Of a stretch of DNA of 64,000 nt, positions 3,006 to 47,808 are shown piece after piece. The DNA lies in the NCBI RefSeq assembly GCF_054482525.1, contig NZ_CM137006.1. One strand, written 5' to 3'. Both the position numbers and the translations under genes were made by a program. The notes beneath the pieces were generated by a model. That model ran no database searches. It saw only the letters and a program-made list of their open reading frames with translations, and had not been told where the DNA came from. Every line of letters begins with the position of its first letter. The first letter of the stretch is position 1.

Positions 3006-5476
3006 TGGCTATCAGTTGGATCCAGCCCAGCTTTGCCGGTGGTGAGATTGGACCGTCGTTGTACGGACGTATCGACATGGCGAAGTACCAGGTGGCATTG
3101 CGCAAGTGCGATAACTTTATCGTGCGGCAGTATGGCGGCGTTGAGAATCGACCTGGTACGCGTTTTGTCGGTGCCGCCAAATACCCAAATCGGAAATGCC
3201 GCCTGATCCCGTTCCAGTTCTCGACGGTTCAGACCTATGCTCTGGAGTTCGGACACCAGTACATGCGCGTTATCAAAGATGGTGCGTTGGTGCTGAACAG
3301 CAGCAATGTTATTTATGAAATTGCCACGCCATATACTGAAGCCGATCTGTTCCGAATTAAATTTACGCAAAGCGCCGACGTGCTTACGCTGGTTCACCCG
3401 GCATACCCGCCGAAAGAGTTGCGCCGCTATGCGCATGACAACTGGCAACTGGTTGATGTGGTAACGAAGAACGGGCCATTTGAAGATATCAATATTGACG
3501 AGTCAGTGACGGTTTATGCCAGCGCCAGCACTGGGACAATTACGTTAACGGCAAGCGCCTCTATTTTTGGCGCGGAGCAGGTAGGCAAATTGTTCTATCT
3601 GGAACAGCCTGCAGTGGATTCTGTGCCGGTATGGGAAACCAGTAAGAGTACGTCGATTGGCGATATTCGCCGTGCAGACAGTAACTACTATCGCGCCGTT
3701 ACAGCAGGAAAAACAGGCACTTTGCGCCCTTCGCATACAGAAGGCACATCATGGGATGGCTGGGGCGGATCCGGTGATGATGATACTGGCATTGAGTGGG
3801 AGTATCTGCACAGTGGTTTTGGCATTGCCCGTATAACTGCTGTAAATGGCACTACTGCAACTGCTGAGGTGATTTCCTATATCCCTTCGCAGGTCGTTGG
3901 CGAGGATAATGCCAGCTATAAATGGGCTAAATATGCCTGGAACAGTGTTAATGGTTATCCTGGCACTGTTGTTTATTATCAACAACGTCTTTACTTCGCC
4001 GCATCGACTGCGTTCCCTCAGACTATCTGGGCCAGCCGTACTGGGGATTATAAGGATTTTGGCAAAAGCAATCCTACGCAGGATGACGACAGAATTATCT
4101 ACACCTATGCCGGGCGTCAGGTTAATGAGATCCGCCACCTGATTGATGTTGGTTCGCTGGTGGCGCTGACTTCCGGAGGTGAGTATGTCATCACCGGCGA
4201 CCAGAACAAAGTGTTAACCCCATCATCATTTGCATTCAGCTCTCAGGGATCAAATGGCTCAAGCAACGTCCCGCCAATTGCCGTGGCGAATATTGCTTTG
4301 TTCGTCCAGGAGAAAGGCAGTGTTGTACGTGATCTGGCCTACTCATTCGATGTTGACGGCTATCAGGGGAACGACCTGACCATCCTTGCCAATCATCTTT
4401 TTCAGAAGCACAGCATTGTTGACTGGTGCTTCTCGATTGTCCCTTACTCCAGCGCCTTCTGCATTCGTGATGACGGTAAATTGCTGGTGATGACCTATTT
4501 GCGTGATCAGCAGGTTTTTGCATGGGCACCACAATCCAGTACCGGGAAATATGAAAGCACATGCAGTATCAGCGAAGGCAATGAAGATGCGGTGTATTTC
4601 GTCGTTAACCGAACCGTTAACGGGCAAACAGTGAGATACATAGAGCGACTGTCCAGCCGTTTATTTACCAGCGATGAAGATGCTTTCTTTGTTGATTCTG
4701 GCCTTAGCTATGATGGAAGAAATACGTCTGACAGAACGATGACCATCACTGGTGGTTCTGGTGAATGGGATTACCGCGCGGAATATACAATCAGTATTTC
4801 TGGTGGTGCGTACTTCACCAGTAGTGATGTCGGTGCGCAACTACAATTCCCTTATACCGGAACTGATCCTGATACTGGCGATGAAGTGTCAAAAGAATTA
4901 CGTTGCGACATTATTTCTGTAACCAGCAATACCGCTGTAGTGGTTCGTCCTAACAGGAACGTCCCATCATCCCTCAGGAATGTGGCCACCACGAACTGGC
5001 AGATGGCGCGCCGGACATTTGGAGGCCTGTCTCATCTTGAAGGCCAGATCGTAAACATTCTCTCTGATGCGAACGTGGAACCACAGAAAGTTGTTTCCGG
5101 AGGTGCCGTCACGCTGGAATCTCCGGGGGCTGTAGTGCACATCGGCCTGCCAATAACTGCTGAATTCGAAACACTGGATATCAACATTAGCGGACAGGAA
5201 ACGCTGCTGGACAAAAAACAGGTGATCCCGTCCGTTACTCTGGTTGTGAATGCCAGTCGCGGCATCTGGGCGACTACGCCCGGCGGTAAATGGTACGAAT
5301 ATCCACAGCGTGAATTCGAGTTCTACGATGATCCTGTTGATGATGCTACCGGAAAAGTAGAAGTGAAACTGGACAGTAACTGGGGCAAAAACGGGCGTGT
5401 AAAAATCCGTCAGCTTGACCCGTTGCCGCTGTCTGTTCTTGCCGTTATTCCTCGCCTTACTGTTGGGGGAGTCTGA
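3005..5476 (+). CDS. Putative tail tubular protein B / nozzle-like protein, 823 aa
   Basis: TGATG overlap with the upstream gene; size and position match T7 gp12. N-terminus is Gly/Pro-rich. Confidence 0.45.
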   Translation: MAISWIQPSFAGGEIGPSLYGRIDMAKYQVALRKCDNFIVRQYGGVENRPGTRFVGAAKYPNRKCRLIPFQFSTVQTYALEFGHQYMRVIKDGALVLNSSNVIYEIATPYTEADLFRIKFTQSADVLTLVHPAYPPKELRRYAHDNWQLVDVVTKNGPFEDINIDESVTVYASASTGTITLTASASIFGAEQVGKLFYLEQPAVDSVPVWETSKSTSIGDIRRADSNYYRAVTAGKTGTLRPSHTEGTSWDGWGGSGDDDTGIEWEYLHSGFGIARITAVNGTTATAEVISYIPSQVVGEDNASYKWAKYAWNSVNGYPGTVVYYQQRLYFAASTAFPQTIWASRTGDYKDFGKSNPTQDDDRIIYTYAGRQVNEIRHLIDVGSLVALTSGGEYVITGDQNKVLTPSSFAFSSQGSNGSSNVPPIAVANIALFVQEKGSVVRDLAYSFDVDGYQGNDLTILANHLFQKHSIVDWCFSIVPYSSAFCIRDDGKLLVMTYLRDQQVFAWAPQSSTGKYESTCSISEGNEDAVYFVVNRTVNGQTVRYIERLSSRLFTSDEDAFFVDSGLSYDGRNTSDRTMTITGGSGEWDYRAEYTISISGGAYFTSSDVGAQLQFPYTGTDPDTGDEVSKELRCDIISVTSNTAVVVRPNRNVPSSLRNVATTNWQMARRTFGGLSHLEGQIVNILSDANVEPQKVVSGGAVTLESPGAVVHIGLPITAEFETLDINISGQETLLDKKQVIPSVTLVVNASRGIWATTPGGKWYEYPQREFEFYDDPVDDATGKVEVKLDSNWGKNGRVKIRQLDPLPLSVLAVIPRLTVGGV

Positions 5477-5940
5477 TGATCGATGTTCAAATTATTCCCG
5501 CTACCGAAGAGCATCTTCAGATGATTTTGCCGGATGTTCGTCAGGCTGATATTGACGAACTGTATGCGGTATCGCTGATGACTACCGAAGATGCGCTGCG
5601 CGTTGGTCTTCGCACTGCGACTATGGCCTGGTCAGGGTTCGCGAACGGAGAACTGGTAACCATGTTTGGTGTATCTCCGGCGTCAATGATCGGTGGCAAT
5701 GGTACGCCCTGGCTGGTAGGAACCAGCCGTATTGAAAAATATCAGAAGACATTTCTGCGCCACTGCCGCCCTGTATTGCAGCAGATGCTGGCAGTTTATC
5801 CGCGCCTGGAAAACTACGTCGACGAGCGAAACCATGTTGCCAAAGCATGGCTGCACTGGCTTGGATTCAGGCTTGAAGAAGCCGCGCCTTATGGTGCTCT
5901 TGGTCTTAATTTCCACAGATTTCACATGGAGAGAAAATAA
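5476..5940 (+). CDS. Putative internal virion protein, 154 aa
   Basis: Start overlaps the upstream stop; lies in the internal-protein block between nozzle-like gene and tailspike. Confidence 0.35.
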   Translation: MIDVQIIPATEEHLQMILPDVRQADIDELYAVSLMTTEDALRVGLRTATMAWSGFANGELVTMFGVSPASMIGGNGTPWLVGTSRIEKYQKTFLRHCRPVLQQMLAVYPRLENYVDERNHVAKAWLHWLGFRLEEAAPYGALGLNFHRFHMERK

Positions 5941-6485
5941 TGTGCGATCCGGTTATTGCTGGTGGCGCAATGCTCGCCATGAGTGGCATTCAGGCATACA
6001 CCCAGTACCAACAGGGAAAGTATGCCTCGAAGGTTGCAGAAGCGAACGCAGATATAGCCACAGCTCAGGCAAATGATGCAATAAACAGAGGTAACGCTGA
6101 AGCTGAGCAACGACGCAGAGAGACCCGACAGCGGCTTGGTACACAGGCGGCGACAATGGGGGCTACCGGCGCTGATTTATCTACAGGTAACGCGCTGGAT
6201 ATATTTGGCGACACTGCCCAGTTTGGCGCTCTTGATTCGCTGACGACGGTGAATAACGCGCAACGCGAGGCTTACGGTTATCAGGTTCAGGCTGCCAACT
6301 ATAAAGCAGAAGCCAGTTCAGCCCGTAAACAGGGGAATGTGGGAGCAGCAACAACATTGCTCACTGCGCCTCTGAAGGCATACGGTGCCTACCAGATGTT
6401 TGGTGGGACGTGGAGTCCGTTTACTCAAAGTACTCCTGCACCAATCGGGGCAGCAGCAGGAACCAGATTACCCGGAGGATTATAA
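5940..6485 (+). CDS. Putative internal virion protein, 181 aa, Ala/Gly/Gln-rich
   Basis: TAATG overlap with upstream gene; low-complexity helical composition typical of ejection proteins. Confidence 0.35.
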   Translation: MCDPVIAGGAMLAMSGIQAYTQYQQGKYASKVAEANADIATAQANDAINRGNAEAEQRRRETRQRLGTQAATMGATGADLSTGNALDIFGDTAQFGALDSLTTVNNAQREAYGYQVQAANYKAEASSARKQGNVGAATTLLTAPLKAYGAYQMFGGTWSPFTQSTPAPIGAAAGTRLPGGL

Positions 6486-8998
6486 TGCCAGTCGTACCAA
6501 CAGTATCCGGACGTCAGGTTGAGAGCCGTGGAGTTCAGTCAGCAGGCTTGCAGACGTTTTCTCAGCCAGGTATTGGTGATGCTTTTGTTCGGGCAGGGGC
6601 AGAGGCTATTGATGTTTTTGGTCAGGCAAAACAGCGTGCCAATATCGCTCTGGCTCAGGAGGCATCTCTTAACCTCAGTCAGATAAGCAGTGATCTGCTG
6701 AATAATCCTGAAACAGGATTGCTTAACCTGAAAGGGAAAAATGCTATTGGAAAAGGCCATGAGTATACGCAGCAGTTTGATGCTCAGGTCGAACAACTGG
6801 CTATGTCGCTGCCGGATGAACAGGCTCGTAATGCTTTCATGCAGCAGGCGCAGCAGCAGCGCATTCAGTTCACTACGCAGGCAGGGCGGCACGAGATAGG
6901 GCAAATAAATGCCTACGAAGAAGGCCAGTTTCAGGCTACGCTGCTGAACAATGGTAAAAATGCCGCAGCATTGTATGGCGACAACGCCGCATACGTATTG
7001 GCTAATAAGCAAACTTTCCAGCAAATTGAGGATTACGGCATTGCACATGGCTGGAGTGACGAGCAAATCCAGGCCAAGAAAATCGAGTTTAAAGAAGCAA
7101 CAGCAAAAGCAACTGCTCAAAATGCTATTGGAGCAAACTATCTTCAGGTAAGACAGCAAAACGGCGAGTTAAGCGATACTGCTGCTGGATCTCGCCGTGC
7201 TGTAGCAGATAGTGGCTCTTTCGATCGTACCCGCGGTATACGCAACAATAACCCCGGCAATCTTGAATACAGCAAAACTAATCCGTGGGTTGGGCAGACA
7301 GGTGATGATGGTCGCTTTGCTAAATTCGAAACACCTGAACACGGTATTCGTGCATTAGGGCGGAACCTGATGTCGTATCAGCGGCAGGGTATTGATACCG
7401 TCAGCGAGATAATTAATCGCTGGGCACCGCCCACTGATAAAAATGACACAATGTCGTATATCAAAGCAGTGTGCGAACAACTTGGCGTTTCTGCTGATGA
7501 GTCTCTCGATGCATCTAATCCGGATACCCTGAAGGCGCTTTGTGCAGCCATTATCCATCATGAAAACGGTAGCCAGCCATACAGTGATCAGCAGTTAACT
7601 GATGGTGTTAGTGCTGCGCTGGGGCTTTCTCAGCTACCGACAAAAAATAAACGTTATACCGGTGTAGCTTGGTTCGATGCTTTAAGTGAATCAGATCAGG
7701 CCAGCGTGTTGCGACAGACTGATGCACTAGCCAGACAACAGCAGGCTGAATATAAAACGATGCTCGACAGCCGGGTTCGCGATGCGACGGCTGCGTATAT
7801 GCGTGGCGTTGAATTTCCTAACCCACCTGGTGAGGATGATTTTATTGCAGCTTATGGAGTCAGAGAAGGAAACCTGCGATATACCGAGTTTAAGAATACG
7901 CAGATCGCCGGACAGTATATAGGCTCTTTCCGCAACATGCCGACAAGCAGCATTACAGCATATGTTGAGCAATTACGCCCGGATACTGGTGATACAGGGG
8001 AGGGGTATGCGGCACGCGCAGCTCTTTATGACAACGTTGTTTCGGCTGCAAATCAGGTGATAAAGCAGCGGCAGTCGGATCCTGTGCAGTTCTCTCTTGC
8101 CTCCGGACAGGCAAAGCCTATCGACATGAGCAATAAGGATAACTTTGGACAGAGCGTTGCCTTGCGTGCCGCTCAGGTCAGTGACCTTGCTAAGTCATAT
8201 GGCACTCCACTGACGTTCTTTTCCAAAGACGAGGCCAATCAGATCGGTGTTTTCTTTCGTGATGCTCCAGTTTCCCAACAGGCAGCATATCTCGATACCA
8301 TCAGGCAGAGCACTGGTGGTGGGCAGGTGTATATGTCAGCACTACAGCAGATCAGTGCCAACGCTCCATCTGCTGCCGTTGCCGGGATACTGATGGATAA
8401 GCCTGGTGGTATTTTGGCAGAAAAAAACTGGTTTAATCCGGATGTTTCCGTGTCTCCTGAAACCGCTGCGCAGACAATTCTTGCTGGCGCGGCGGCTCGT
8501 AAAGGTACTGATGATGCGAAAGGTATTCCGATGCCTAAAGATGCTGATCTTCGCCTTGAGTTTTCTGACATGGTGAAGGATGCATTTGCTGGTGACGCTC
8601 AGGGGGCATCAATGGCATACGAGATCGCAAAGGATTATTACGCTGGTGTGATGGCGAAAAAAGGCGTGGTATCAGGCGAAATTGACAATGATGTCTGGAA
8701 ACAGGCTGTTAACGTAGCTACAGGTGGCGTGCATGACTATAACGGAATGGGGAATGTCCTTTTGCCGTGGGGAATGTCTGCAGAGCAATTCGATAAGCAG
8801 GTTAATCAGGCTTGGAATGAACAAGTTGTCGGCTCTGGGATAAAAACACCGCCTGGTCAGTATGGTTTGCAAAGTTACGGCGATAGTCAGTACCTGGTGA
8901 AACTTGGTACTGGTTATCTGCTGAAAGATGATGGTTCTCCCGTTGTTCTTAATCTGACACAGAAGCGTCAGAGATTCTCCGGAGATATTCCGCAATGA
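6485..8998 (+). CDS. Putative internal virion/ejection protein, 837 aa, with a conserved central block
   Basis: Track ORF 6410..8998; ATG at 6485 overlaps the upstream stop (TAATG). Central block GIRNNNPGNL...RWAPP...HHENG looks like a globular domain. Confidence 0.4.
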   Translation: MPVVPTVSGRQVESRGVQSAGLQTFSQPGIGDAFVRAGAEAIDVFGQAKQRANIALAQEASLNLSQISSDLLNNPETGLLNLKGKNAIGKGHEYTQQFDAQVEQLAMSLPDEQARNAFMQQAQQQRIQFTTQAGRHEIGQINAYEEGQFQATLLNNGKNAAALYGDNAAYVLANKQTFQQIEDYGIAHGWSDEQIQAKKIEFKEATAKATAQNAIGANYLQVRQQNGELSDTAAGSRRAVADSGSFDRTRGIRNNNPGNLEYSKTNPWVGQTGDDGRFAKFETPEHGIRALGRNLMSYQRQGIDTVSEIINRWAPPTDKNDTMSYIKAVCEQLGVSADESLDASNPDTLKALCAAIIHHENGSQPYSDQQLTDGVSAALGLSQLPTKNKRYTGVAWFDALSESDQASVLRQTDALARQQQAEYKTMLDSRVRDATAAYMRGVEFPNPPGEDDFIAAYGVREGNLRYTEFKNTQIAGQYIGSFRNMPTSSITAYVEQLRPDTGDTGEGYAARAALYDNVVSAANQVIKQRQSDPVQFSLASGQAKPIDMSNKDNFGQSVALRAAQVSDLAKSYGTPLTFFSKDEANQIGVFFRDAPVSQQAAYLDTIRQSTGGGQVYMSALQQISANAPSAAVAGILMDKPGGILAEKNWFNPDVSVSPETAAQTILAGAAARKGTDDAKGIPMPKDADLRLEFSDMVKDAFAGDAQGASMAYEIAKDYYAGVMAKKGVVSGEIDNDVWKQAVNVATGGVHDYNGMGNVLLPWGMSAEQFDKQVNQAWNEQVVGSGIKTPPGQYGLQSYGDSQYLVKLGTGYLLKDDGSPVVLNLTQKRQRFSGDIPQ

Positions 8999-10797
8999 GT
9001 TACTTTGGCCTTAATCCAGTAAACCAGAATCAGCAGCTTGACGAAGCAGCATCAAATCCAGCTGGCTTTAACAGCGATGTTGGTTTTTTCGACAATGCTG
9101 TAGGAGCGGCATTGTCTGGTTTGTACTCCGGGCTGGTGGCAAAGCCAGATCAGTTGCTATGGGCAGGGATGGATAAAATCGTATCCCCGATTGCTCAGTT
9201 TGTTAACGAAAACACCTCGCTCAATGATACTTCAGTTTCATACATTGCCGAGCAGAGAAAACTAGCAGAGCAGCAGGTTAAGCGGCTGACGCCTGATGCC
9301 GCGACAACCGGAACCGCTGGGCAGGTTCTTTATGGGTTGTTCGATATGGGCGGGCAGGCTGTTGTCGGTACAACGCTCGGTGGTCCTGTCGGAGGTGCAG
9401 CGGCGGTAACTTCGCTACAGGGTTTTTCTGAGTTTGAACGGCTGACAGCACAGGGTGTTGATTTCAGGACGGCGCAGGAAGCGGGATTAGTGCAGGGCAT
9501 TACTGCTGGTGCCGGAACGCTGATCCCTATGAGCCTCGGGTTACGTGCTGGTGGTGCGCTGGCGGAAGGTGTGGCGGCTCAGCTTGCGCGGACGGGTGAG
9601 AGTTCAGTGCGACGCGCCGCAGCAACAGCAGTACGTGCAACGCCAGATATTGCCTATGCCGCAGGTACAAATATTGCGTTCGGTATGGCACAGCGTGGGC
9701 TTACTGCAAAAACACTTCGTGATGGTGGCTATAGCGAAATGGCTAACCAGTATGATGTGTTGGATCGACAGGCAATTGCTATTGATGCTGTTCTTGGGGT
9801 GGCGTTTGGTGGTGTCGGCAGATTTATTAACTCTCGCGGCGAGTCTACAAACGCACCAAATTTTTCACCAGTTGATATCGATGCTGCACTGGCGGCGAAT
9901 GCCGCTCATCATGCTGAAATTGATATTGCGCCCGGCGTGCCGATCAACGTGCTTTCGCGCAATTCTCACATTCAGGCTCTGCGAAAAGCTATGTCTGATG
10001 TTAGCCAGGGGAGACCTGTAGACGTTGCCAGCATTGTTGAGTCTGCATCTTTCAGTGAAATTCCTGGGCGCAAGAGTCTGCTGTCTCAGGCAGTTAATGA
10101 GGCTCTGTCATCTGTAGATGATGGAGTAACGGCGCGCGCTATAGAAAATCGGTTGCTTGAAGAACAGGCCGCGCAGCTTTTGCCGCGTGGAGATAGACAG
10201 GTTTACCAGTCTGAAATCGCTAATAGCCAACGAATTATTGAAAATCTCACTGAACAGCGTGCACAAATTCTTGCAGAAGAGCCAACCGGTAGCGGTAAAG
10301 CTTTGTCTCGTGCTCGATCAGATAAACAGGCCAGACTTCGCGATATTGATCAACGAATCCGGCAGGCACAAGAACGCCTGGAATTTTCCCGTAACGCGTT
10401 GGCACCGCACGAGCCTGGCGGTCAGTTTTTTGAAGCTCGAGCAGAACTGGCTCGGAGACAGCAGGCAGAAAGTGAACTTAATGCTCAGGCTGTTTCATTC
10501 TATAAAACAGCAGAGGTCAGGACGCCAGACGAAGTAGCTCCTTTTGAGCCTGATAAAATATTGCAACAGGCAGAACAAAAAATGATGTCAGATCAGGCAG
10601 GAGATATTGATCTGCGCATAGCTGAAGACTCGCTGCTTGAATCACCTGACATGATAATCACCGTGCTGGATGATGATGGTAATCCACAATCGCGCAGTGC
10701 GCGTGAAGTACTGGATGAAGCGAACAGGGAAAGTGAGCAGGCAATACAGGATTCCAGCCTGTTTGATGTTGCTGTGGCGTGTTTCTTGAGAGGTTAA
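8995..10797 (+). CDS. Putative internal virion/ejection protein, 600 aa
   Basis: ATGA overlap with upstream gene; Gly/Ala-rich N-terminal half and charged helical C-terminal half. Confidence 0.4.
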   Translation: MSYFGLNPVNQNQQLDEAASNPAGFNSDVGFFDNAVGAALSGLYSGLVAKPDQLLWAGMDKIVSPIAQFVNENTSLNDTSVSYIAEQRKLAEQQVKRLTPDAATTGTAGQVLYGLFDMGGQAVVGTTLGGPVGGAAAVTSLQGFSEFERLTAQGVDFRTAQEAGLVQGITAGAGTLIPMSLGLRAGGALAEGVAAQLARTGESSVRRAAATAVRATPDIAYAAGTNIAFGMAQRGLTAKTLRDGGYSEMANQYDVLDRQAIAIDAVLGVAFGGVGRFINSRGESTNAPNFSPVDIDAALAANAAHHAEIDIAPGVPINVLSRNSHIQALRKAMSDVSQGRPVDVASIVESASFSEIPGRKSLLSQAVNEALSSVDDGVTARAIENRLLEEQAAQLLPRGDRQVYQSEIANSQRIIENLTEQRAQILAEEPTGSGKALSRARSDKQARLRDIDQRIRQAQERLEFSRNALAPHEPGGQFFEARAELARRQQAESELNAQAVSFYKTAEVRTPDEVAPFEPDKILQQAEQKMMSDQAGDIDLRIAEDSLLESPDMIITVLDDDGNPQSRSAREVLDEANRESEQAIQDSSLFDVAVACFLRG

Positions 10798-10802
10798 ATT
10801 AA

Positions 10803-13277
10803 ATGAGACAGGAATGTATACAAGCGGTCCAGCAGGCGGCGCAGCGCACGTTAACGGCGCGAGAAATACAGAACATTGAAGACCGCATTTATCGAAATAT
10901 GCGCTCCATTGCTCGTGATGACCCGATGTCGTGGCGACAACTTTCCGAATCAGAACGGTTGTATCGTGCAGCACAATTGGCATCTGAAGAATTACAGCGA
11001 GAAGCGGCATTAAAGAAACGTCGTGTGGCCCTCACTATAGCCGCACGTCAGAGATTGGATAAATTTATCAATAGCTATCAAGGGGCTGATGGGAAACTTG
11101 GCGCTCTTAACCGTACTATTGCTTTTAATGCAGACGGTAAATCGAATTTCCTCTCTGTTGAATCCAGAACAAAAGCCACCCGTGATTATGCATTGAGTCA
11201 ATTGCAGGAGGCATTCGAAGCAGTTGATCCTCGCTTTTTTGGTCTGTTTGAAGATGAAGCGGGCGTACGTGACCTGATATATGAAATGCGGGGGCAAAAT
11301 ACTGGCAATGCTAAAGCAAGAAAAGGTGCTAAGGCGTGGAGAGAAGTTACAGAGCTGCTGCGCCGCCGGTTTAATGATGCTGGTGGGGACATTGGCTATC
11401 TCGAAAACTGGGGGATCCCTCAACATCATTCTATGGAAAAGGTTGGGGCGGTATCAAAAGATAAATGGGTTAGCGATGTTATAGGTAAGCTGGATCGCAA
11501 ATATTATACCCGAGCCGATGGACAACTGATGAACGATGCCGAGTTGTCTGCATTTCTTGGAGAGGCTTATAACACGATCGCTACTGGTGGGCTGAATAAG
11601 CTTACTGATACCGGAATGCGAATTTCCGGCGCACGTGCTAACCGTGGTAATGCATCACGACAGATACATTTCAAAGATGCAGATTCCTATCTGCAATATC
11701 AGCAACTTTATGGCGATCGCTCTCTATGGGAAATCATGGTCGGTCACCTGGAAGGTATCAGTAAAGATATTGCACTGGTGGAAACATATGGTCCAAACCC
11801 CGATCATGTTTTCCGCTCTCTTCTTGATCAGGTGAAGGCAGAAACGGCAACAGCTAACCCGAGTAAAACCGGTAAAGTCGAGCGGCTGGCGAACAACACA
11901 GAGAATCTGTACAACTTTATTTCCGGAAAGACACAGCCTGTAGCGAATCCGCACATCGCGCGATGGTCTGACAATATCCGCAACTGGCTGGTTGCCAGCA
12001 GACTCGGATCCGCGTTGCTGTCATCGTTCTCTGATCTTGGAACCATGTATCTGTCTGCGAAGGTTACCAACCTTCCAATGAACCAGTTATTCCGCAACCA
12101 GCTTGAAGCTATGGACCCAACGAACCGTACAGAACTTGCGCGGGCGCGCCGCGCTGGTCTGGCGATGGAATCTCTACTTGGCAGCGTTAACCGCTGGGCG
12201 ATGGATAATATGGGGCCGTCTGTGTCTCGTTGGGCTGCAACGGCGGTAATGCGTGCCAGTGGGCTTACAGCATGGTCAGATGCGCACAAGCGCGCCTATG
12301 GCGTAACCATGATGGGAAGCCTGGGAGAAGTAGTGTCACGGACACCAGACCTTCGTCGCCTCGATGACTCTGATTTTCGTATCCTGAAAAGCAAAGGGAT
12401 TACTGACACAGACTGGAGCGTATGGAAGTTGGCGCAACAGGAGGACTGGGGGAACGGTAATAATACGATGCTGACACCGGAAAGCATTATGCGTATCCCT
12501 GATTCAGCAGTTAAACATCTTGGTGAGCCTGAACGCGTGAAATTTGAGGCAATGCGTAAACTGCTCGGTGCCGTAACTGAAGAAGTTGATATGGCTGTTA
12601 TTACACCGGGAGCACGTGAGCAACTGATAACCGGTTCTGGTATTCAGCGTGGAACATGGAAAGGTGAATTAACGAGAAGTGTTTTCCTGTTTAAATCGTT
12701 CCCTATCTCGGTTGTTATGCGTCACTGGTCACGCGCTATGGGTATGCCGTCTGCTGGTGGGCGTGCGGCATATATTGCGACGTTTATTGCCAGTACGACC
12801 ATTCTTGGCGCTTTGTCGCAACAACTTAACGACCTTGCGTCTGGTCGTAATCCTCGAGAGATGACAGGAGAAGATGCTGCTAAATTTTGGCTTGGTGCTC
12901 TACTGAAAGGTGGTGGTCTTGGCCTTTACGGTGACTTTTTATTGTCAGATCACACTAGGTACGGGAGCGGCGCGCTGGCGTCGATGCTTGGCCCGGTAGC
13001 TGGTCTGGTTGATGACGTAGTGAAGATAGCTCAGGGCATACCGCTAAATGCTGTGGAAGGGAAGAGTGAGCAGACTGGTGGTGATCTGGTGAAGCTGGGG
13101 AAAGGTTTGATGCCAGGTGCGAATCTCTGGTACTTGAAGGCGGCTCTCGATCACATGATCTTTAATCAGATGCAGGAGTATTTTTCACCAGGCTATTTGC
13201 GTAAAATGGAGCAACGTTCGAAGAAAGAGTTTAACCAGACATACTGGTGGCGACCTCAGGATGTCACTCCGCAATAA
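10803..13277 (+). CDS. Putative internal virion/ejection protein, 824 aa
   Basis: GAGAGG Shine-Dalgarno; last large gene of the co-oriented structural block. Confidence 0.4.
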   Translation: MRQECIQAVQQAAQRTLTAREIQNIEDRIYRNMRSIARDDPMSWRQLSESERLYRAAQLASEELQREAALKKRRVALTIAARQRLDKFINSYQGADGKLGALNRTIAFNADGKSNFLSVESRTKATRDYALSQLQEAFEAVDPRFFGLFEDEAGVRDLIYEMRGQNTGNAKARKGAKAWREVTELLRRRFNDAGGDIGYLENWGIPQHHSMEKVGAVSKDKWVSDVIGKLDRKYYTRADGQLMNDAELSAFLGEAYNTIATGGLNKLTDTGMRISGARANRGNASRQIHFKDADSYLQYQQLYGDRSLWEIMVGHLEGISKDIALVETYGPNPDHVFRSLLDQVKAETATANPSKTGKVERLANNTENLYNFISGKTQPVANPHIARWSDNIRNWLVASRLGSALLSSFSDLGTMYLSAKVTNLPMNQLFRNQLEAMDPTNRTELARARRAGLAMESLLGSVNRWAMDNMGPSVSRWAATAVMRASGLTAWSDAHKRAYGVTMMGSLGEVVSRTPDLRRLDDSDFRILKSKGITDTDWSVWKLAQQEDWGNGNNTMLTPESIMRIPDSAVKHLGEPERVKFEAMRKLLGAVTEEVDMAVITPGAREQLITGSGIQRGTWKGELTRSVFLFKSFPISVVMRHWSRAMGMPSAGGRAAYIATFIASTTILGALSQQLNDLASGRNPREMTGEDAAKFWLGALLKGGGLGLYGDFLLSDHTRYGSGALASMLGPVAGLVDDVVKIAQGIPLNAVEGKSEQTGGDLVKLGKGLMPGANLWYLKAALDHMIFNQMQEYFSPGYLRKMEQRSKKEFNQTYWWRPQDVTPQ

Positions 13278-13472: not shown

Positions 13473-13769
13473 ATGCAAGCTATAGGATTCATTGTTTATA
13501 TCGTCGTTGGTCTTTTTCAGTTGGCAGCAATTATGGCTGGGCTTGAATCATGGTGGGGATTGCACTGGATAATTGCAGCCCCCATTGCTTTCATCGTGAG
13601 CTATATTCCATTTGTTGGAGCGATTGTTGGTATGGTTGGCGCTGTGGATGTATGGCGGTGGGAGTGGTGGCAGGCTGGCCTTCTCTTCTTTGGTGGGATC
13701 ATCTTTGCTATTGTCTGCGGTGGAATGTCATCATTTTTCGAATGGCTATCATTCAGAAAAGGGACGTGA
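13473..13769 (+). CDS. Small integral membrane protein, 98 aa (three predicted helices, Trp-rich loops)
   Basis: ORF with AGGTGA Shine-Dalgarno 6 nt upstream; strongly hydrophobic segments. Confidence 0.5.
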   Translation: MQAIGFIVYIVVGLFQLAAIMAGLESWWGLHWIIAAPIAFIVSYIPFVGAIVGMVGAVDVWRWEWWQAGLLFFGGIIFAIVCGGMSSFFEWLSFRKGT

Positions 13770-13962: not shown

Positions 13963-14035
13963 TGTGAAATTTCCATCTATAAGCCACCTCAATGTGGCGT
14001 CAATGAGTGTAGCACTGACTTTTGTTTCGTCCACA

Positions 14036-14058
14036 AAAAATCCCGCAGCGCGGGCTTA
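14036..14058 (-). terminator. Intrinsic terminator downstream of the toxin-like gene
   Basis: Minus strand reads aagCCCGCgctGCGGGattttttg. Confidence 0.5.
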
Positions 14059-14601
14059 TTCCTTCCATTTATCAGAAAAAAGATCTTCTTCTAAAGGCAT
14101 TGGTTCTGTTTTTGTTTTCTCAAAGAATTGATAACTGATAGTGATTGCTGCCTCTTTAAACTCTTCTTGCTCAGTTATGTTGTGGGCATCTGCGTCAACA
14201 AAAAACATAACCAGCGCATCACGATTGTGATTTACCGAATAAACTAAAAAGCAATTACTTGTTGGTATGCATTTTACTTGCACAGACGCTATTTTTTTCC
14301 ATGCATCCCAAGATGATTTTTTACCAGTGTGTTTTTTATCACTATCTTCTGGAATATAGTCTTGGTTATCGACATGAGTATGCCTGACATTTAGTTTAAG
14401 CATTTCTGTCGGACGAGCAAATGCAGCATCTTTACCAAGAGATGGATGGTATCCCGTTTTCCAATACTGGGTAAAGGCATCAGATACTTTCTTCAGCTCA
14501 AGATCAGATGCACAAAGGGCCGAGAAATTTTGCGTATGCAATACTCGACCCTTATATCTGACAATTTGATTTTTATCATTCTGCGACGCAGACGAACTCA
14601 T
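14056..14601 (-). CDS. Hypothetical toxin-like accessory protein, 181 aa (tentative resemblance to YafO-family toxins; unverified)
   Basis: Track ORF 14056..14628; ATG at 14601 with AAGGAA Shine-Dalgarno. AT-rich, opposite strand to virion genes. Motifs YHPSLGKDAAFARP and VRHTHV recalled as YafO-like, from memory only. Confidence 0.5.
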   Translation of the reverse strand: MSSSASQNDKNQIVRYKGRVLHTQNFSALCASDLELKKVSDAFTQYWKTGYHPSLGKDAAFARPTEMLKLNVRHTHVDNQDYIPEDSDKKHTGKKSSWDAWKKIASVQVKCIPTSNCFLVYSVNHNRDALVMFFVDADAHNITEQEEFKEAAITISYQFFEKTKTEPMPLEEDLFSDKWKE

Positions 14602-14755
14602 AATTTTCCTTATTGTTACGAGAATCAAAGAAAGCGCGGGATACGCGACTTGCGTGATCTTTTGTCATAGTAACTTTTACGCACTCTACGCTTCCATTGA
14701 AAGAACGTCTTGCGGCAGCTTGCGCTCTACGCATCTGCAATTTTTCGTTTCGCAT
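14576..14755 (-). CDS. Small basic ORF, 59 aa, overlapping the start of the toxin-like gene (candidate antitoxin/regulator)
   Basis: Hand translation: MRNEKLQMRRAQAAARRSFNGSVECVKVTMTKDHASRVSRAFFDSRNNKENYEFVCVAE. GAGGT Shine-Dalgarno 6 nt upstream; 26-nt overlap with the downstream gene. Not in ORF track (<60 aa). Confidence 0.25.
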   Translation of the reverse strand: MRNEKLQMRRAQAAARRSFNGSVECVKVTMTKDHASRVSRAFFDSRNNKENYEFVCVAE

Positions 14756-14902
14756 GACATTACCTCATATCTCATAAGTTCATTACACGGATTAATAAAA
14801 ATGAAACCAATCCGTTTACCCTTGAGGTAATAGTACGCTATTCACCCACAGTCTGCAATCTGTACAGAATTATTTAAAGGCACATCCCTGTGCCGCCGCC
14901 CG

Positions 14903-15598
14903 TCAGAAGAACCCTGCCTTGTCGTTGATGTACTCCGCGTGCGTCTGGATATCACGCAGGCATTTGCTCACACCGACGATGTAGCAGAACATGGTGGTCA
15001 GCTCCGCCGCCGCGCCCGATACGTCGTGCCCGTCGTCCTGTAACTGGTTCAGCAGATTCATCAGCAGTGAGTTCTCCGTCAGGCCGAGAACACCAGACGG
15101 CGAATGAATCAGGCTGCGGTAGCCGGGCTTCAGTGGGGCACTGTAGGTTTTGTTCTCTATCTTCATCGCCTGCATCACTGCTGATGCTGTGGCGTTGGCT
15201 ACCTGGTCGGCAACCATCTTTATGCGCTCTTCCTGCGGGAGCGAGTTTTTAATGTAACTTCCGGTGCGGCGGATCTGAGGAAGAACCTCACCTGTAACCC
15301 ATTTACGAAAGCGGTATGGGATAGTGCCTGGTGTCACTGCGTCGCGGCAGCGGAGGATCAGTGTGTAGAGGCCTGACTCGGAGATGATGATCGATTCTTG
15401 CTCACCGCCAGGGGTGTCGGTTGAAGCGACGCCCTTCTCATCATCATCAAGTTTTCGAACAGCATCTCGATGGTTTGCTATGCCTATAGCCCGACAAACA
15501 TCTGAAGCGATAAACCATGGCTCACCATTAATGACGATTACTCGTATATCGGCTTGGGATTCGAAAGAAAAAATGGACGTGCTTTTTGTAGCTGTCAT
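14903..15598 (-). CDS. Bro-N (KilA-N-like) domain protein, antirepressor-like, 231 aa
   Basis: N-terminal pattern F.F...IRV....GEPWF.A.DVC...G......A...LDDDEK...T.GG.Q...ISESGLY.LI.R......FR.WVT.EVLP.IRRTG matches Bro-N; AAAAGG Shine-Dalgarno. Confidence 0.7.
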   Translation of the reverse strand: MTATKSTSIFSFESQADIRVIVINGEPWFIASDVCRAIGIANHRDAVRKLDDDEKGVASTDTPGGEQESIIISESGLYTLILRCRDAVTPGTIPYRFRKWVTGEVLPQIRRTGSYIKNSLPQEERIKMVADQVANATASAVMQAMKIENKTYSAPLKPGYRSLIHSPSGVLGLTENSLLMNLLNQLQDDGHDVSGAAAELTTMFCYIVGVSKCLRDIQTHAEYINDKAGFF

Positions 15599-15913
15599 AG
15601 TGGTTACCTTTTAGTCTGGTTAATCACCACTACCGACGCCAATCGGTTGGTGGTGAGCTGTGCAGGGTTGGCGTAACCGGCTAAAAGGACCCGGCGCACC
15701 TTTCGGTGCCCCCACACAGCCCACCATAATACGAATGTGGCCGTGCTATACGCATAAAAAAACCGCTTGCGCGGTGAATGCGCCTTTTAGTAATCCGGGA
15801 CGCCAATCCCGGCACTGGATTTTGCCAGTGCCCGATTACTATGGCACAAGAGGAGTGCGATGTAAATTTACCGCAAAGGTAAATATAAGCACTTCATTTG
15901 GTAATTGCAAACC

Positions 15914-16171
15914 TTATCTGGTTTGTTTTCGTAATTGTTCGGCACAATAGTCGAGATGTGTTTGCAGATCCTGCATAGACATCTGTGAGCTGGTGACGTA
16001 GTTAATCAGTGCAGTCAGTTCGGCAAGTGGGCCATCGACATTAAATCCATCCTTATCTAGATCCCGGAGTAATTTCATCAAGTGCGATCCCTCCACCAGT
16101 GACTTGACGCCTCCCGGCGTGTGAATCCTTTCGGTAAATCCGTCTTCCAGTGGATAGTGATACTGCTGCAT
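15914..16171 (-). CDS. Small protein, 85 aa, paralog of the C-terminal domain of the adjacent Bro-N protein
   Basis: HTPGGVKSLVEGSHLMKLLRDLDKDGFNVDGPLAELTAL...LQTHLDY aligns with HSPSGVLGLTENSLLMNLLNQLQDDGHDVSGAAAELTTM...IQTHAEY of the 231-aa protein. Second ATG (16171) has a GGAG Shine-Dalgarno; track start is 16186. Confidence 0.55.
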   Translation of the reverse strand: MQQYHYPLEDGFTERIHTPGGVKSLVEGSHLMKLLRDLDKDGFNVDGPLAELTALINYVTSSQMSMQDLQTHLDYCAEQLRKQTR

Positions 16172-16193
16172 CTTAATCTTCTCCATGCAATAA

Positions 16194-16209
16194 CTGTATA
16201 TTTATACAG
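16194..16209 (-). promoter_or_regulatory. LexA (SOS) box upstream of the 85-90 aa gene / Bro-N gene pair
   Basis: CTGTATATTTATACAG fits CTGT-N8-ACAG with an AT-rich centre; TTGATA -35-like hexamer abuts it on the coding strand. Confidence 0.65.
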
Positions 16210-16367
16210 TATCAAATAATTTGTTTGCTATCCAGCACGTTTTGCAAATTACCTAAAAGGTAATATCTATTTATATTCACAGTATTTCTATCCATATGTG
16301 GTTTTTCAGGTAATAGAATAACCAGATATGCGGCGCAACGGGTGCTGCGACTATCTGGAGATTTAAC

Positions 16368-38642: not shown

Positions 38643-40658
38643 TTACAACACCTCGCGAACCGAGATCCCCAGCCGCTGCATTCGTGACAGCAGCGTGGTG
38701 CGCTTCATCCCTAATCGTGTCGCCGCGCCACGGGGCCCGGCAACAATGCCATTGGTTTCTCGCAATACCTGAACAATGCGCTGACGTTCTTCTTCGTCAT
38801 TCTCTGGCGTCGTCGGGTGCAGCAACTGCGCCATTGAACTGCGAAGCGCTGAATCTTCATTTAGCGTCGGCAGTAAACGGCTTTGTCGGACATTAAGATG
38901 TAAATTCAGACTGTTACCGCGAGTCAGTAGTACCGCTCGCTCAATCACGTTTTCCAGCTCGCGCACGTTGCCCGGCCAATCCCACGACATCAACTGGCGT
39001 AGTGCCTCGGTCGGGATGGCGTCAATTGCGCGATTCATATGGCGCGCCATTTTTTGCGTGAAATGCTTTGCTAAAAGAGGGATATCTTCCGGACGGTCGC
39101 GCAGTGGCGGCAGTTCCAGTGGGAAGACATTCAGGCGATAAAAGAGATCGCTGCGAAACTGGCGATCTTCAACCATTTGCCATAAATCACGGTTGGTGGC
39201 GGCAATGACTCTGACATTCACCGGGATCGTTCTACTCCCGCCGAGACGCTCAATCTCCCGCTCCTGCAATACGCGCAGCAGTTTAGGCTGAAGTTCTAAC
39301 GGCAGATCGCCAATTTCATCGAGAAACAACGTGCCGCCATCGGCAATTTCAAAACGTCCACGATGGGTATTAATCGCACCAGTAAACGCCCCTTTGTCAT
39401 GACCGAATAACTCACTTTCCAGAAGACTGGCGGGGATGGCAGCGCAGTTGATTTTGACCAGCGGCTTGTCGCGGCGCGGGCTAAGTTGATGGATCGCTCT
39501 GGCGATCACCTCTTTGCCGGTTCCGGTTTCACCGCAAATCAACACCGTACTGTCGCTCTTCGCCACAATATCTACCTGCTGGAGCAGGTCTTCCATTGCC
39601 TGGCTTTGATAGATAATGTCACCGACGCCCAGATTCGAAAGGAGCTGCTCGCTAAGCTGGTGGTTTTCTTGCTGCAAGCTTTCCTGCAAATCGGTCATGC
39701 TACGCCAGGCATCGGCATTGCCAACGGCAATAGCGATGCGATCGGCTATGTGTTGTAGTAGCTGGCAGTTTTCCTCACTAAAGAGAGTGGAGGAGGTATG
39801 CGCCAGCAACAATGCACCCGGTGTATGGTTGCCAAAGGTAAGCGGTATCAGGAGCGCAGATTCGCAGCCGTTAGATGCAAGTAAGAGTAATAATGGGTCG
39901 CGTTGCCAGAGAAACAGATCATCTGCACGGTGCGTCAAGGTCGGTTGTCGGGTTTGTAGCGTTTGTGTCAGCAATACACTTTCGCCAGGCATACAGCGTG
40001 GCAGACACGCACAATGTGAGGCAGAAAGATCGCTGCACCACAGGCTGAACTTCTCGTTCTTTCGATGATCGCCCAGTACCATACTGACTGAAGCCAGACC
40101 GAAAAAATGATGGATCTCACGGGCGACGTCAGCGATCAGATCGTCGAGATCAAGATGTGACAGCACTGCATTAGTAATATCAACCAGTACCCGATGATGA
40201 TCGCGATCTTTCTCCAGCAAACGCAGCGCCACCTGCTGTTCTTCATCATTGAGCCATGATTGCAGAACCGGGGTGATTATGTGTGCCAGCCAGTTAAACA
40301 GTGTGCAATCCTGAGGAGTAAAACGACTGCCGTGGGTGCGAATAAAGCGTAGCTCCGCCATTCCACTACTGCCGAGAAGGACGGCGTGGCGCGAATAATC
40401 GACCATCTCACCCTGATACTCTGTTGTTGCCGTCACATCGCTGCCATCATCATGGTAGCGGTAATAGAAGTTGCTTTTGAGAACATGCAGTTCAATAAGT
40501 TGTACCGGGCTGAACGGCGGCGGCAGCGGGATGAAGGCGCGTAATAAAGACGCCTTGCCGTGTTTCTGCGCTAACCGCTCCGCGAGCATTCCGTTTACCG
40601 CTTCAATTGTTATTCCTTGCGGCGGGGCAAACATCGCCTCGTCTGACATAGCCATCAA
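38643..40658 (-). CDS. hyfR: sigma54-dependent transcriptional activator HyfR
   Basis: 671 aa; AAA+ sigma54-interaction motifs ([14 protein letters not shown]), C-terminal helix-turn-helix. Confidence 0.9.
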
Positions 40659-40684
40659 CAGTCCTTATTAATGAGAAATCCTTC

Positions 40685-41098
40685 TCACGCAATTTTTCTG
40701 GCCATCAGATAGATGGCCGGTTCCTGCACAATTTCATCCAACAGATGAATGAATTGAATGCTACGCGCCTGCCACGCCGACGTCGCGTCATCTGCCAGTG
40801 GCGCGAATGCCCGGGTCAACAGGGCGGTGTGGCTGGCGTCAATAACAATCTCACCAAAGGTCATCACCCCCAGCATCTTACGTCGGGCTTGCTCCTCTTC
40901 GACCTGTGCAAGCCAATCTTCGTATTCCGTCTGTGGGCAGCGGAAGGCGACATTCAGACAATCAATCACGCCAACGTGATGACCGATAGCCAACGAGTAA
41001 TACATTACCTGGGAGCTGTGTTCCGGCATCTCGTCGCTACTGGCGACAAATTTTTTTCGCAGCGTCCAGAAAACAATTTCCCCGCACTCCTCAGCCAT
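40685..41098 (-). CDS. hyfJ: Hydrogenase-4 component J
   Basis: 137 aa, synteny. Confidence 0.9.
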
Positions 41099-42391: not shown

Positions 42392-42400
42392 CTTCTGTCC

Positions 42401-45686: not shown

Positions 45687-45690
45687 CTCA

Positions 45691-46341: not shown

Positions 46342-46352
46342 TCATCATCTCC

Positions 46353-47792: not shown

Positions 47793-47808
47793 ATTCCGTC
47801 AGTGCTCC

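What the first reader, a model, noticed from the sequence alone, without database searches (positions are those of the whole stretch)
6485..8998. Internal virion protein with an embedded conserved globular block
Residues ~255-365 of the 837-aa protein (about nt 7250..7570) form a conserved-looking block (GIRNNNPGNL...WVGQ...GRFAKF...GIRALGRNL...RWAPP...HHENG) inside otherwise low-complexity sequence. Ejection proteins of podoviruses often carry a cell-wall hydrolase domain (T7 gp16), but this block fits no lytic-transglycosylase or lysozyme signature I know, so it may be a different enzymatic or binding domain.
Basis: inference. Interest (0 to 1): 0.3.

Follow-up and report, generated by a model that had tools for sequence, protein, structure and literature searches.

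The report
Phage entry protein with cell-wall-cutting domain
The conserved block is real and is a known but poorly catalogued type of cell-wall-cutting enzyme domain (the "Enc34 type"), built into a virion protein of an epsilon15/phiV10-like prophage of E. coli, most likely to open the wall for DNA injection; it is an ordinary feature that databases mostly fail to name.

Summary
The 837-aa ORF (6485-8998, +) holds a compact, strongly conserved domain at aa 250-380 (nt 7232-7624). The flanks are not low-complexity: they are predicted with high confidence to be mostly helical.

The block has no Pfam or NCBIfam match. It is nevertheless a clear member of the Enc34/M4Lys/PM2-P5 peptidoglycan hydrolase family (CDD PHA02564):
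- Sequence: E 1e-17 to the Enc34 endolysin catalytic domain (PDB 7q47), and E 2e-39 to the N-terminus of a Kayfunavirus gp16-type ejectosome protein (PDB 9vvp).
- Active site: the proposed catalytic Glu/Trp/Tyr are present as E360, W313 and Y325.

The gene is the ortholog of epsilon15 gp15 and phiV10 gp18. It sits directly after a T7-gp14-like core gene, far from the phage's own holin, GH19 endolysin and spanin cassette. A sister prophage (TL-2011b) carries a classical SLT transglycosylase domain in the same slot. T7 and Kayfunavirus gp16 show the same exchange.

Best reading: a virion-borne entry lysin. This is a new member of a known kind, and interest is low. The practical point is an annotation gap.

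The parts
6485..8998 (+). Whole gene: 837-aa virion (core/ejection-type) protein, ortholog of phiV10 gp18 and epsilon15 gp15
   Evidence: ORF and translation. 100% aa identity to phage HEMP4. Same coordinates as PhiV10p18 'head protein' in the aligned phiV10 locus. 57% identity over the full length to epsilon15 gp15. PHROG 992 covers the full length.
6474..6487 (+). Ribosome-binding site GGAGGA and start ATG, overlapping the stop of the upstream gene (TAATG); translational coupling
   Evidence: Read directly from the sequence. M1 is invariant in alignment A2.
6485..6613 (+). aa 1-43: predicted disordered N-terminus. The first 18 aa (MPVVPTVSGRQVESRGVQ) are identical in TL-2011b gp37, and 17 of 18 are identical in epsilon15 gp15.
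   Evidence: pLDDT <50; pairwise alignments.
6614..7162 (+). aa 44-226: N-terminal long-helix module, shared (49% identity over aa 1-218) with the SLT-carrying variant in phage TL-2011b
   Evidence: Full-length model, pLDDT around 90, helices 38-226. BLASTP against TL-2011b gp37. PHROGs 19141, 36437 and 10475 match only this part.
7163..7231 (+). aa 227-249: flexible linker before the domain
   Evidence: Low pLDDT at 240-247. Lowest conservation of the internal regions, 16%.
7232..7624 (+). aa 250-380: Enc34-type (PHA02564 / PM2-P5-like) lysozyme-alpha-lobe-like peptidoglycan hydrolase domain; this is the 'conserved block'
7421..7423 (+). Trp313 codon, equivalent of Enc34 Trp79 (substrate positioning)
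   Evidence: Residue-by-residue mapping of the phmmer alignment. Conserved in 91% of 252 homologues plus the query. Role as given in PMC8943055.
7457..7459 (+). Tyr325 codon, equivalent of Enc34 Tyr95
   Evidence: 98% conserved. Invariant in A2.
7562..7564 (+). Glu360 codon (HHENG), equivalent of the proposed catalytic Glu131 of Enc34
   Evidence: 100% conserved in 252 homologues plus the query. Invariant in A1 and A2.
7625..8995 (+). aa 381-837: C-terminal helical region (395-640) and alpha/beta region (640-825). No known structural relative. Diverges from epsilon15 gp15 after about aa 540.
5940..6485 (+). Upstream gene: T7 gp14-family virion core protein (181 aa)
   Evidence: Pfam PF24072 T7_gp14, 31.2 bits against a cutoff of 27. 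PHROG 418 'internal virion protein'. PGAP name 'virion core protein, T7 gp14 family'.
5476..5940 (+). gp13-position internal virion protein (154 aa)
Evidence: PHROG 308.
8995..10797 (+). Downstream 600-aa protein (epsilon15 gp16 position), translationally coupled (ATGA)
   Evidence: PHROG 1145. No PDB relative.
10803..13277 (+). 824-aa virion structural protein (epsilon15 gp17 position)
   Evidence: PHROG 684. phiV10p20 annotation. No PDB relative.
20075..21496 (+). The prophage's separate lysis cassette: holin (20075-20383), GH19 endolysin (about 20373-21002) and spanin (20999-21496). The embedded domain is therefore not the lysis enzyme.
   Evidence: Pfam PF05449, PF00182 and PF10721. phiV10 annotation of holin, endolysin and Rz-like spanin.

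Best explanation
The gene encodes a structural protein of an epsilon15/phiV10-like (Uetakevirus) temperate podovirus that lies as a prophage in an E. coli chromosome. It occupies the slot directly after the T7-gp14-like core gene, so it is packaged in the virion on the portal/tail axis. Residues 250-380 form an Enc34-type (PHA02564, PM2-P5-like) peptidoglycan glycosidase. This is an all-helical relative of the lysozyme alpha-lobe, with Glu360 as the proposed catalytic acid and Trp313 and Tyr325 positioning the glycan.

Proposed mechanism: after the tailspike has bound the O-antigen, the core proteins leave the capsid through the tail. This protein's enzyme domain cuts glycan strands locally, most likely as an N-acetylglucosaminidase like its relatives. 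That lets the helical parts of this and the neighbouring core proteins assemble a conduit across the periplasm for the DNA.

What is shown:
- Family membership, fold and the active-site residues.
- The gene's position and its separation from the lysis cassette.
- Natural exchange of this domain with SLT domains.

What is inferred: packaging in the virion, ejection, enzymatic activity of this particular protein, bond specificity, and a role at entry.
For: Family membership:
- phmmer against PDB gives 7q47 (Enc34 endolysin catalytic domain) at E 1.2e-17 and 9vvp Gp29 at E 2e-39.

Active site: W313, Y325 and E360 align with Enc34 W79, Y95 and E131. They are 91%, 98% and 100% conserved across 252 homologues plus the query.

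Activity of the family: the Enc34 domain lyses permeabilised E. coli, Pseudomonas and Hafnia cells (PMC8943055). The M4Lys domain degrades purified peptidoglycan, with N-acetylglucosaminidase products (PMC7143992).

Virion context:
- The gene follows a Pfam T7_gp14 gene inside a translationally coupled run of tail and core genes.
- It is 57% identical to epsilon15 gp15. PMC12391199, citing Guichard 2013, lists gp15 among the proteins it assigns to the packaging/injection device.
- 9vvp Gp29 corresponds to the gp16-type 'internal virion protein D / DNA ejectosome component' of Kayfunavirus.

Not the lysis enzyme: a complete holin, GH19 endolysin and spanin cassette lies 11 kb downstream.

Functional equivalence to the T7 gp16 lytic transglycosylase domain:
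- TL-2011b gp37 shares aa 1-218 (49% identity) and then carries Pfam SLT at 263-342 in the same slot.
- Kayfunavirus gp16 is 53% identical to T7 gp16 from aa 125 onward, but has the Enc34-type domain where T7 has its N-terminal region. That region is the transglycosylase domain, aa 1-156, according to PMC8954989.

Other carriers are ejected proteins: an N4-type virion RNA polymerase, a crAss cargo-domain protein, and possibly a tape-measure-like protein whose Pfam match is below the curated cutoff.
Against: - No experiment on this protein or on any Uetakevirus ortholog was found. A 2017 review of virion-associated lysins lists only the tailspike for epsilon15.
- The location of epsilon15 gp15 in the virion is not settled. 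It may be internal core or the central tail tube; the latter is Guichard 2013 as I recall it, and that paper was not readable here.
- The flanks show no sequence or fold similarity to T7 gp15 or gp16, so 'ejection protein' rests on gene order.
- Bond specificity in the family is unsettled. M4Lys data also suggested an endopeptidase activity.
- The structural evidence is a predicted model, not a solved structure.
Confidence: 0.8

Rival explanations
1. The domain is the phage's lysis enzyme (an endolysin acting at the end of the cycle), as the labels 'endolysin' in PHROGs and in some GenBank records suggest.
For: PHROG 873 and 1044 are described as 'endolysin'. The best-characterised relatives, Enc34 ORF39 and M4Lys, are true lysis-cassette endolysins. 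Many Chi-like and D3112-like phage records annotate the homologous gene as endolysin.
Against: The domain is embedded in an 837-aa protein in the middle of the tail and core gene block, after a T7-gp14-like gene. The prophage has its own holin, GH19 endolysin and spanin cassette. No transmembrane anchor like that of Enc34 or M4Lys follows the domain; helices and an alpha/beta region follow instead.
Confidence: 0.04
2. The domain is a catalytically dead or purely wall-binding or structural module. It would anchor the ejection channel to peptidoglycan, or simply be part of the core stack, without cutting.
For: No activity data exist for this protein. [quoted passage not shown]
Against: Every residue proposed to matter for catalysis is retained, and E360 is invariant in 252 homologues. 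The domain is the most conserved part of the protein: 55% against about 20% in the flanks. It is replaced in relatives by another catalytic wall-cleaving domain, SLT, rather than by a binding module.
Confidence: 0.07
3. It cleaves the wall, but as a lytic transglycosylase or muramidase (MurNAc-GlcNAc bond) like T7 gp16, not as an N-acetylglucosaminidase. The mechanism is the same, but the chemistry differs from that inferred for the family.
For: Many records annotate the homologous domain as 'peptidoglycan lytic exotransglycosylase' or 'peptidoglycan transglycosylase'. The epsilon15 gp15 RefSeq note cites an HHpred match to SltB 4anr. The Enc34 authors found weak fold similarity to the GH23 enzymes phiKZ gp144 and MltC as well. 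It substitutes for SLT domains in the same slot.
Against: No Pfam SLT match. The closest non-family folds are GH73-type glucosaminidases (PMC8943055). M4Lys muropeptide analysis indicated GlcNAc release. The database labels appear to be transferred from the T7 gp16 position, not tested.
Confidence: 0.15

Closest known systems
Enc34 ORF39 / BSPM4 M4Lys endolysin catalytic domain (CDD PHA02564; PDB 7q47)
   Different: Those are roughly 230-260-aa lysis-cassette enzymes with a C-terminal transmembrane anchor. Here the domain is internal (aa 250-380) in an 837-aa structural protein, with no anchor and a separate GH19 endolysin elsewhere in the prophage.
Kayfunavirus (K1F-like) gp16 'internal virion protein D' / PDB 9vvp Gp29
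   Same: The closest solved relative of the domain (E 2e-39, 53% identity). It is part of a gp16-type ejectosome protein of a podovirus, so the presumed job at entry is the same.
   Different: There the domain is at the extreme N-terminus of a 1295-aa gp16 homologue (53% identical to T7 gp16 from aa 125 onward). Here it is internal in the protein of the gp15 position, and the rest of the two proteins is unrelated. No paper on 9vvp was found.
T7 gp16 N-terminal SLT lytic transglycosylase domain, and TL-2011b gp37 SLT variant
   Same: Same role and same slot. TL-2011b gp37 has the same N-terminal module and gene position but an SLT domain at aa 263-342. The T7 gp16 domain helps genome internalisation through highly cross-linked wall (PMC8954989).
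   Different: Different sequence family and probably different chemistry (GH23 lytic transglycosylase against a GH73-like glycosidase). There is no Pfam SLT hit in the window protein.
PM2 structural protein P5 and Vinavirales / NO16 GP11 lysins
   Same: Homologous domain found in virions of tailless membrane-containing phages. It is the source of the database name 'structural protein P5' and of the phiV10 gp18 note.
   Different: Those are small stand-alone proteins of viruses with an internal membrane, not a module of a large podovirus core protein.
epsilon15 gp15 / phiV10 gp18
   Same: Orthologs: 57% identity over the full length to epsilon15 gp15, and the same coordinates as PhiV10p18 in the aligned phiV10 locus.
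   Different: The C-terminal 300 or so aa are mosaic. Neither ortholog has been assigned an Enc34-type lysin domain in the papers I could read. RefSeq calls them 'head protein'.

Membership tests
Enc34-type / PHA02564 / PM2-P5 peptidoglycan hydrolase domain | Significant sequence similarity to characterised members | tested here: met
   phmmer E 1.2e-17 to 7q47 and 2e-39 to 9vvp. tblastn hits to Enc34, Chi-like, D3112-like and Vibrio corticovirus-like records.
Enc34-type / PHA02564 / PM2-P5 peptidoglycan hydrolase domain | All-helical fold resembling the alpha-lobe of lysozyme, with helices alpha2-alpha5 forming the groove | tested here: met
Enc34-type / PHA02564 / PM2-P5 peptidoglycan hydrolase domain | Conserved Trp79 / Tyr95 / Glu131 signature | tested here: met
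   W313, Y325 and E360 align exactly. They are 91%, 98% and 100% conserved in 252 homologues plus the query.
Enc34-type / PHA02564 / PM2-P5 peptidoglycan hydrolase domain | Peptidoglycan-degrading activity | not testable with these tools
   Shown only for Enc34 ORF39deltaC and M4LysdeltaTMD.
Enc34-type / PHA02564 / PM2-P5 peptidoglycan hydrolase domain | Match to the CDD model PHA02564 | not testable with these tools
   CDD is not among the libraries. Pfam and NCBIfam hold no model for the domain.
SLT / GH23 lytic transglycosylase (T7 gp16 type) | Match to Pfam SLT (PF01464) with its catalytic Glu-Ser motif | tested here: not met
   No Pfam hit at E<=1. The same search finds SLT in TL-2011b gp37.
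GH73 N-acetylglucosaminidase | Sequence-model match or close fold similarity to GH73 enzymes | tested here: inconclusive
T7 gp15-like internal virion protein C (periplasmic tunnel) | Gene directly downstream of the gp14 homologue in the core-protein operon | tested here: met
   Pfam T7_gp14 on 5940-6482. Gene order.
T7 gp15-like internal virion protein C (periplasmic tunnel) | Sequence or fold similarity to T7 gp15 | tested here: not met
T7 gp15-like internal virion protein C (periplasmic tunnel) | Present in the virion and ejected into the cell envelope | not testable with these tools
   epsilon15 gp15 is listed among the proteins assigned to the packaging/injection device in PMC12391199, citing Guichard 2013. 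The primary papers are not held.
Canonical lysis-cassette endolysin | Encoded next to holin and spanin genes and acting at lysis | tested here: not met
   Holin, GH19 endolysin and spanin are at 20075-21496, 11 kb away. This gene is in the structural block.

The most novel reading that the evidence does not exclude
The Enc34-type domain may not be chemically equivalent to the SLT domain it replaces. It could be a glucosaminidase, or as hinted for M4Lys a dual glycosidase/endopeptidase. The choice between the two cassettes in otherwise near-identical E. coli prophages would then tune which wall states the phage can penetrate, for example stationary-phase, highly cross-linked or O-acetylated peptidoglycan. 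On this reading the wall-cutting module of ejection proteins would be a host-range or physiological-range determinant that is exchanged horizontally, much as tailspikes are.
Probability: 0.1. Interest if true: 0.5.

Novelty: new member of a known kind. Interest (0 to 1): 0.22.

Why it matters
Biologically this is expected: podovirus core proteins often carry a wall-cleaving module.

The useful points are practical.

1. This domain family is very large (13,033 representatives at 50% clustering) yet has no Pfam or NCBIfam model. The gene is therefore 'hypothetical protein' under the top-listed matches, and it is present in about 300 complete E. coli genomes. The SLT-carrying sister allele does get a functional name.
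2. It provides a clear assignment for the epsilon15 gp15 / phiV10 gp18 protein, whose role in a structurally well-studied phage is still vague.
3. The two natural SLT-for-Enc34-type swaps, in Uetakevirus-like gp15 and in T7-like gp16, give ready-made pairs for testing whether the two enzyme types are interchangeable at entry.
4. The isolated domain is a candidate Gram-negative-active muralytic enzyme.

Tried and rejected
- Pfam and NCBIfam scans of the whole protein and of the block gave nothing real. Sigma-54 and AphA matches at E 0.08-0.2 are chance.
- PDB sequence searches of the three neighbouring core proteins found no relatives. The PETase matches at E>0.1 are chance.
- Profile comparison of the full-length family with T7 gp15 found no similarity. 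BLASTP against T7 gp16 found none either.
- A literature search for PDB 9vvp found nothing relevant. The primary epsilon15 papers (Guichard 2013, Chang 2010, Jiang 2006) are not held, so statements about gp15 in the virion rest on secondary citation and on my memory.
- The idea that epsilon15 gp15 might carry an SltB-type domain, from its RefSeq HHpred note, is rejected. It has the same Enc34-type domain (about 88% identical there) and no Pfam SLT hit.
- The longer GTG start at 6410 is rejected.
- The minus-strand ORFs inside the gene (for example 6539-7159, Leu/Cys-rich) were treated as shadow ORFs of an Ala/Gln-rich gene and not pursued.
- No tRNA was found in the window.
Full report
**What is in the sequence**

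The ORF at 6485-8998 on the + strand translates to 837 aa. Its ATG follows a GGAGGA box at 6474-6479 and overlaps the stop of the preceding gene as TAATG. Its own stop overlaps the start of the next gene as ATGA. It is therefore one link in a translationally coupled chain of structural genes. The ORF tool's longer GTG start at 6410 is not used: Met1 is an invariant column in 33 full-length homologues.

The block is the conserved part of the protein. Among 32 full-length homologues, aa 250-380 average 55% identity to the query, against 16-23% in the structured flanks and 9% in the last 12 residues. That set was chosen through the domain, so the contrast is somewhat inflated.

The flanks are rich in Ala, Gln and Gly, with slightly lower sequence entropy. 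They are not low-complexity filler. An AlphaFold model built on the 33-sequence alignment (mean pLDDT 85.4) gives this layout:

| Residues | Predicted structure |
|---|---|
| 1-43 | disordered |
| 44-226 | long helices |
| around 240-247 | weak linker |
| 250-380 | compact domain |
| 395-640 | helices |
| 640-825 | alpha/beta part |

**Where the window comes from**

Bases 1 to about 21,600 are the right-hand part of a prophage of the epsilon15/phiV10 group (genus Uetakevirus).
- They are 96-99% identical at the DNA level to phages HEMP4, phiv142-3 and phiV10.
- Bases 40,000-48,000 are the E. coli hyf operon, present in 4,296 of 5,426 complete genomes.
- The protein is 100% identical to one encoded in phage HEMP4.
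- It lies at the same coordinates as PhiV10p18 ('head protein', 'similar to structural protein P5 from phage PM2') in the aligned phiV10 locus.
- It is 57% identical over its full length to epsilon15 gp15, with the domain about 88% identical and the last 300 or so residues mosaic.

The gene order is:
1. tail protein (823 aa);
2. gp13-position internal virion protein (154 aa);
3. a protein matching Pfam T7_gp14 (181 aa);
4. this protein;
5. a 600-aa protein;
6. an 824-aa virion protein.

**What the block is**

Pfam and NCBIfam have no model for it. Other evidence is unambiguous.

Sequence:
- A search of PDB sequences gives aa 249-403 against the N-terminus of Gp29 of entry 9vvp (E 2e-39).
- The same search gives aa 249-369 against the catalytic domain of the phage Enc34 endolysin, 7q47 (E 1.2e-17).

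Fold, using a model of aa 240-410 built on 62 diverse homologues (pLDDT 92.6):
- With Foldseek it matches only 7q47 in the PDB (E 4e-11, TM 0.68-0.73).

Published work on the family:
- Cernooka et al. (PMC8943055) showed that the domain (CDD family PHA02564) lyses outer-membrane-permeabilised E. coli, P. aeruginosa and Hafnia.
- They proposed Glu131 as the catalytic residue, with Trp79 and Tyr95 positioning the substrate.
- The related M4Lys domain degrades purified peptidoglycan with N-acetylglucosaminidase products, and possibly an endopeptidase product (PMC7143992).
- Yutin et al. placed the PM2 structural protein P5 in the same family (PMC9502842).

Active site in the window protein: these residues map to Trp313, Tyr325 and Glu360. 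Across 252 homologues plus the query, Glu360 is invariant, Tyr325 98% conserved and Trp313 91% conserved.

Size of the family: 13,033 representatives at 50% clustering with E<=1e-3, and 6,741 with E<=1e-10.

**Why I read it as an entry enzyme, not a lysis enzyme**

First, the prophage has a complete lysis cassette elsewhere. It comprises a holin (PF05449), a GH19 endolysin (PF00182) and a spanin at 20075-21496.

Second, the gene is in the core and tail block immediately after the T7-gp14-family gene. Its ortholog epsilon15 gp15 is listed among the proteins assigned to the packaging/injection device (PMC12391199 citing Guichard 2013).

Third, the closest solved relative, 9vvp Gp29, corresponds to the gp16-type 'internal virion protein D / DNA ejectosome component' of Kayfunavirus phages.

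Fourth, there are two natural exchanges with the classical enzyme of T7 gp16.
- Kayfunavirus CLB_P1 gp16 (1295 aa) is 53% identical to T7 gp16 from residue 125 to the end. Its first 125 or so residues are the Enc34-type domain, where T7 has its N-terminal region. According to PMC8954989 that region, aa 1-156, is the transglycosylase domain.
- Phage TL-2011b matches about 57% of the first 25 kb of the window at about 97% DNA identity. In it, the protein in this very slot (gp37, 905 aa) shares aa 1-218 with the window protein (49% identity). It then carries a Pfam SLT domain at aa 263-342, with nothing else alignable.

Fifth, other carriers of the domain are also proteins that leave the virion at infection. 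These are an N4-type virion RNA polymerase (3,773 aa), a protein with a crAss cargo domain and two copies of the domain, and possibly a tape-measure-like protein whose Pfam match is below the curated cutoff.

The review by Swanson et al. already notes that wall-cleaving domains move between gp15-like and gp16-like ejection proteins (PMC8954989).

**Mechanism, and how much of it is shown**

Shown here:
- Family membership, predicted fold and intact active-site signature.
- Structural-operon position and separation from the lysis cassette.
- Interchange with SLT domains.

Inferred:
- The protein is packaged and leaves the capsid through the tail after O-antigen binding.
- The domain, after passing the channel, locally cleaves glycan strands with Glu360 as the acid catalyst.
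- This lets the helical parts of this and the neighbouring core proteins build a conduit across the periplasm.

Limits on these inferences:
- The flanks have no detectable similarity to T7 gp15 or gp16, so 'gp15-like' is a positional statement only.
- Whether epsilon15 gp15 sits in the internal core or in the central tail tube is not settled by what I could read.
- Bond specificity is not known. Glucosaminidase is the best guess from relatives. The 'lytic transglycosylase' labels in many records look like transfers from T7 gp16.

**Comparison with the known, and novelty**

The domain family is described, has a crystal structure and has measured activity. Its presence in podovirus ejection proteins is already reflected in database labels and in a deposited ejectosome structure.

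What I did not find is any paper assigning an Enc34-type lysin to epsilon15 gp15 or phiV10 gp18. The 2017 review of virion-associated lysins lists only the tailspike for epsilon15.

In RefSeq E. coli genomes the gene is present in 406 of 5,426 complete genomes, with at least 80% coverage in 311. Under the top-listed matches it is named 'hypothetical protein' or 'bacteriophage protein'. The SLT allele reaches at least 80% coverage in 45 genomes and is mostly named 'transglycosylase SLT domain-containing protein'.

This is a new member of a known kind. The value is mainly better annotation, plus a convenient natural pair of alleles for experiments.

**Verdict**

Interest is low, at about 0.2.

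Noticed in passing
L003:6485-9199 (phage TL-2011b gp37) versus window 6485-8998: The same slot in a closely related prophage carries a different wall-cleaving cassette. Only aa 1-218 are shared (49% identity), followed by a Pfam SLT domain at aa 263-342 instead of the Enc34-type domain. In TL-2011b the two downstream core genes (600 and 824 aa in the window) are also replaced by a single 1004-aa gene.
   Followed up: partly
window 6485-6538 (aa 1-18): The predicted-disordered N-terminus MPVVPTVSGRQVESRGVQ is identical in TL-2011b gp37 (49% identical overall over aa 1-218) and 17 of 18 identical in epsilon15 gp15. It may be an incorporation or ejection signal.
   Followed up: no
window 6485-8998; E. 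coli RefSeq genomes: Annotation gap: there is no Pfam or NCBIfam model for a domain family with 13,033 representatives at 50% clustering. The gene is 'hypothetical protein' or 'bacteriophage protein' under the top-listed matches and is present at >=80% coverage in 311 complete E. coli genomes.
   Followed up: yes
proteins P0254, P0186, P0163, P0136, P0134: The domain occurs inside an N4-type virion RNA polymerase (3,773 aa, domain at 497-636) and twice in a protein with a crAss cargo domain. It also occurs in a protein with a weak, below-cutoff tape-measure match, in four tandem copies in a 762-aa protein, and twice in a 1,337-aa protein.
   Followed up: partly
L005:5142-7667 (epsilon15 gp15) versus window 8100-8995: The mosaic boundary is near aa 540. 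The N-terminal two thirds are 70-90% identical between the E. coli and Salmonella orthologs, while the last 300 or so aa are only weakly similar and need many gaps.
   Followed up: no
window 14000-20000: There is a drop in G+C to 0.41-0.46 over a region that is variable between relatives. The related phage genomes match 41-72% of window 1-25000. The region includes a 924-aa tailspike with a pectate-lyase-like N-terminal match (16368-19142) and minus-strand accessory genes.
   Followed up: no
window 13473-13769: A 98-aa, very hydrophobic ORF (several predicted membrane helices, judged by eye) lies just after the core-gene block. phiV10 has only a 46-aa membrane protein and a terminator at that place.
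   Followed up: no
window about 21600-64000: Similarity to phiV10 and HEMP4 ends at about 21.6 kb, directly after the spanin gene. The hyf (hydrogenase 4) operon is at 40-48 kb, and no tRNA gene is found anywhere in the window. The window is therefore the right end of a prophage plus E. coli chromosome.
   Followed up: partly
L005 annotation of epsilon15p15: The RefSeq note on epsilon15 gp15 cites an HHpred match to SltB (4anr). However, the protein has no Pfam SLT hit and carries the Enc34-type domain.
   Followed up: yes
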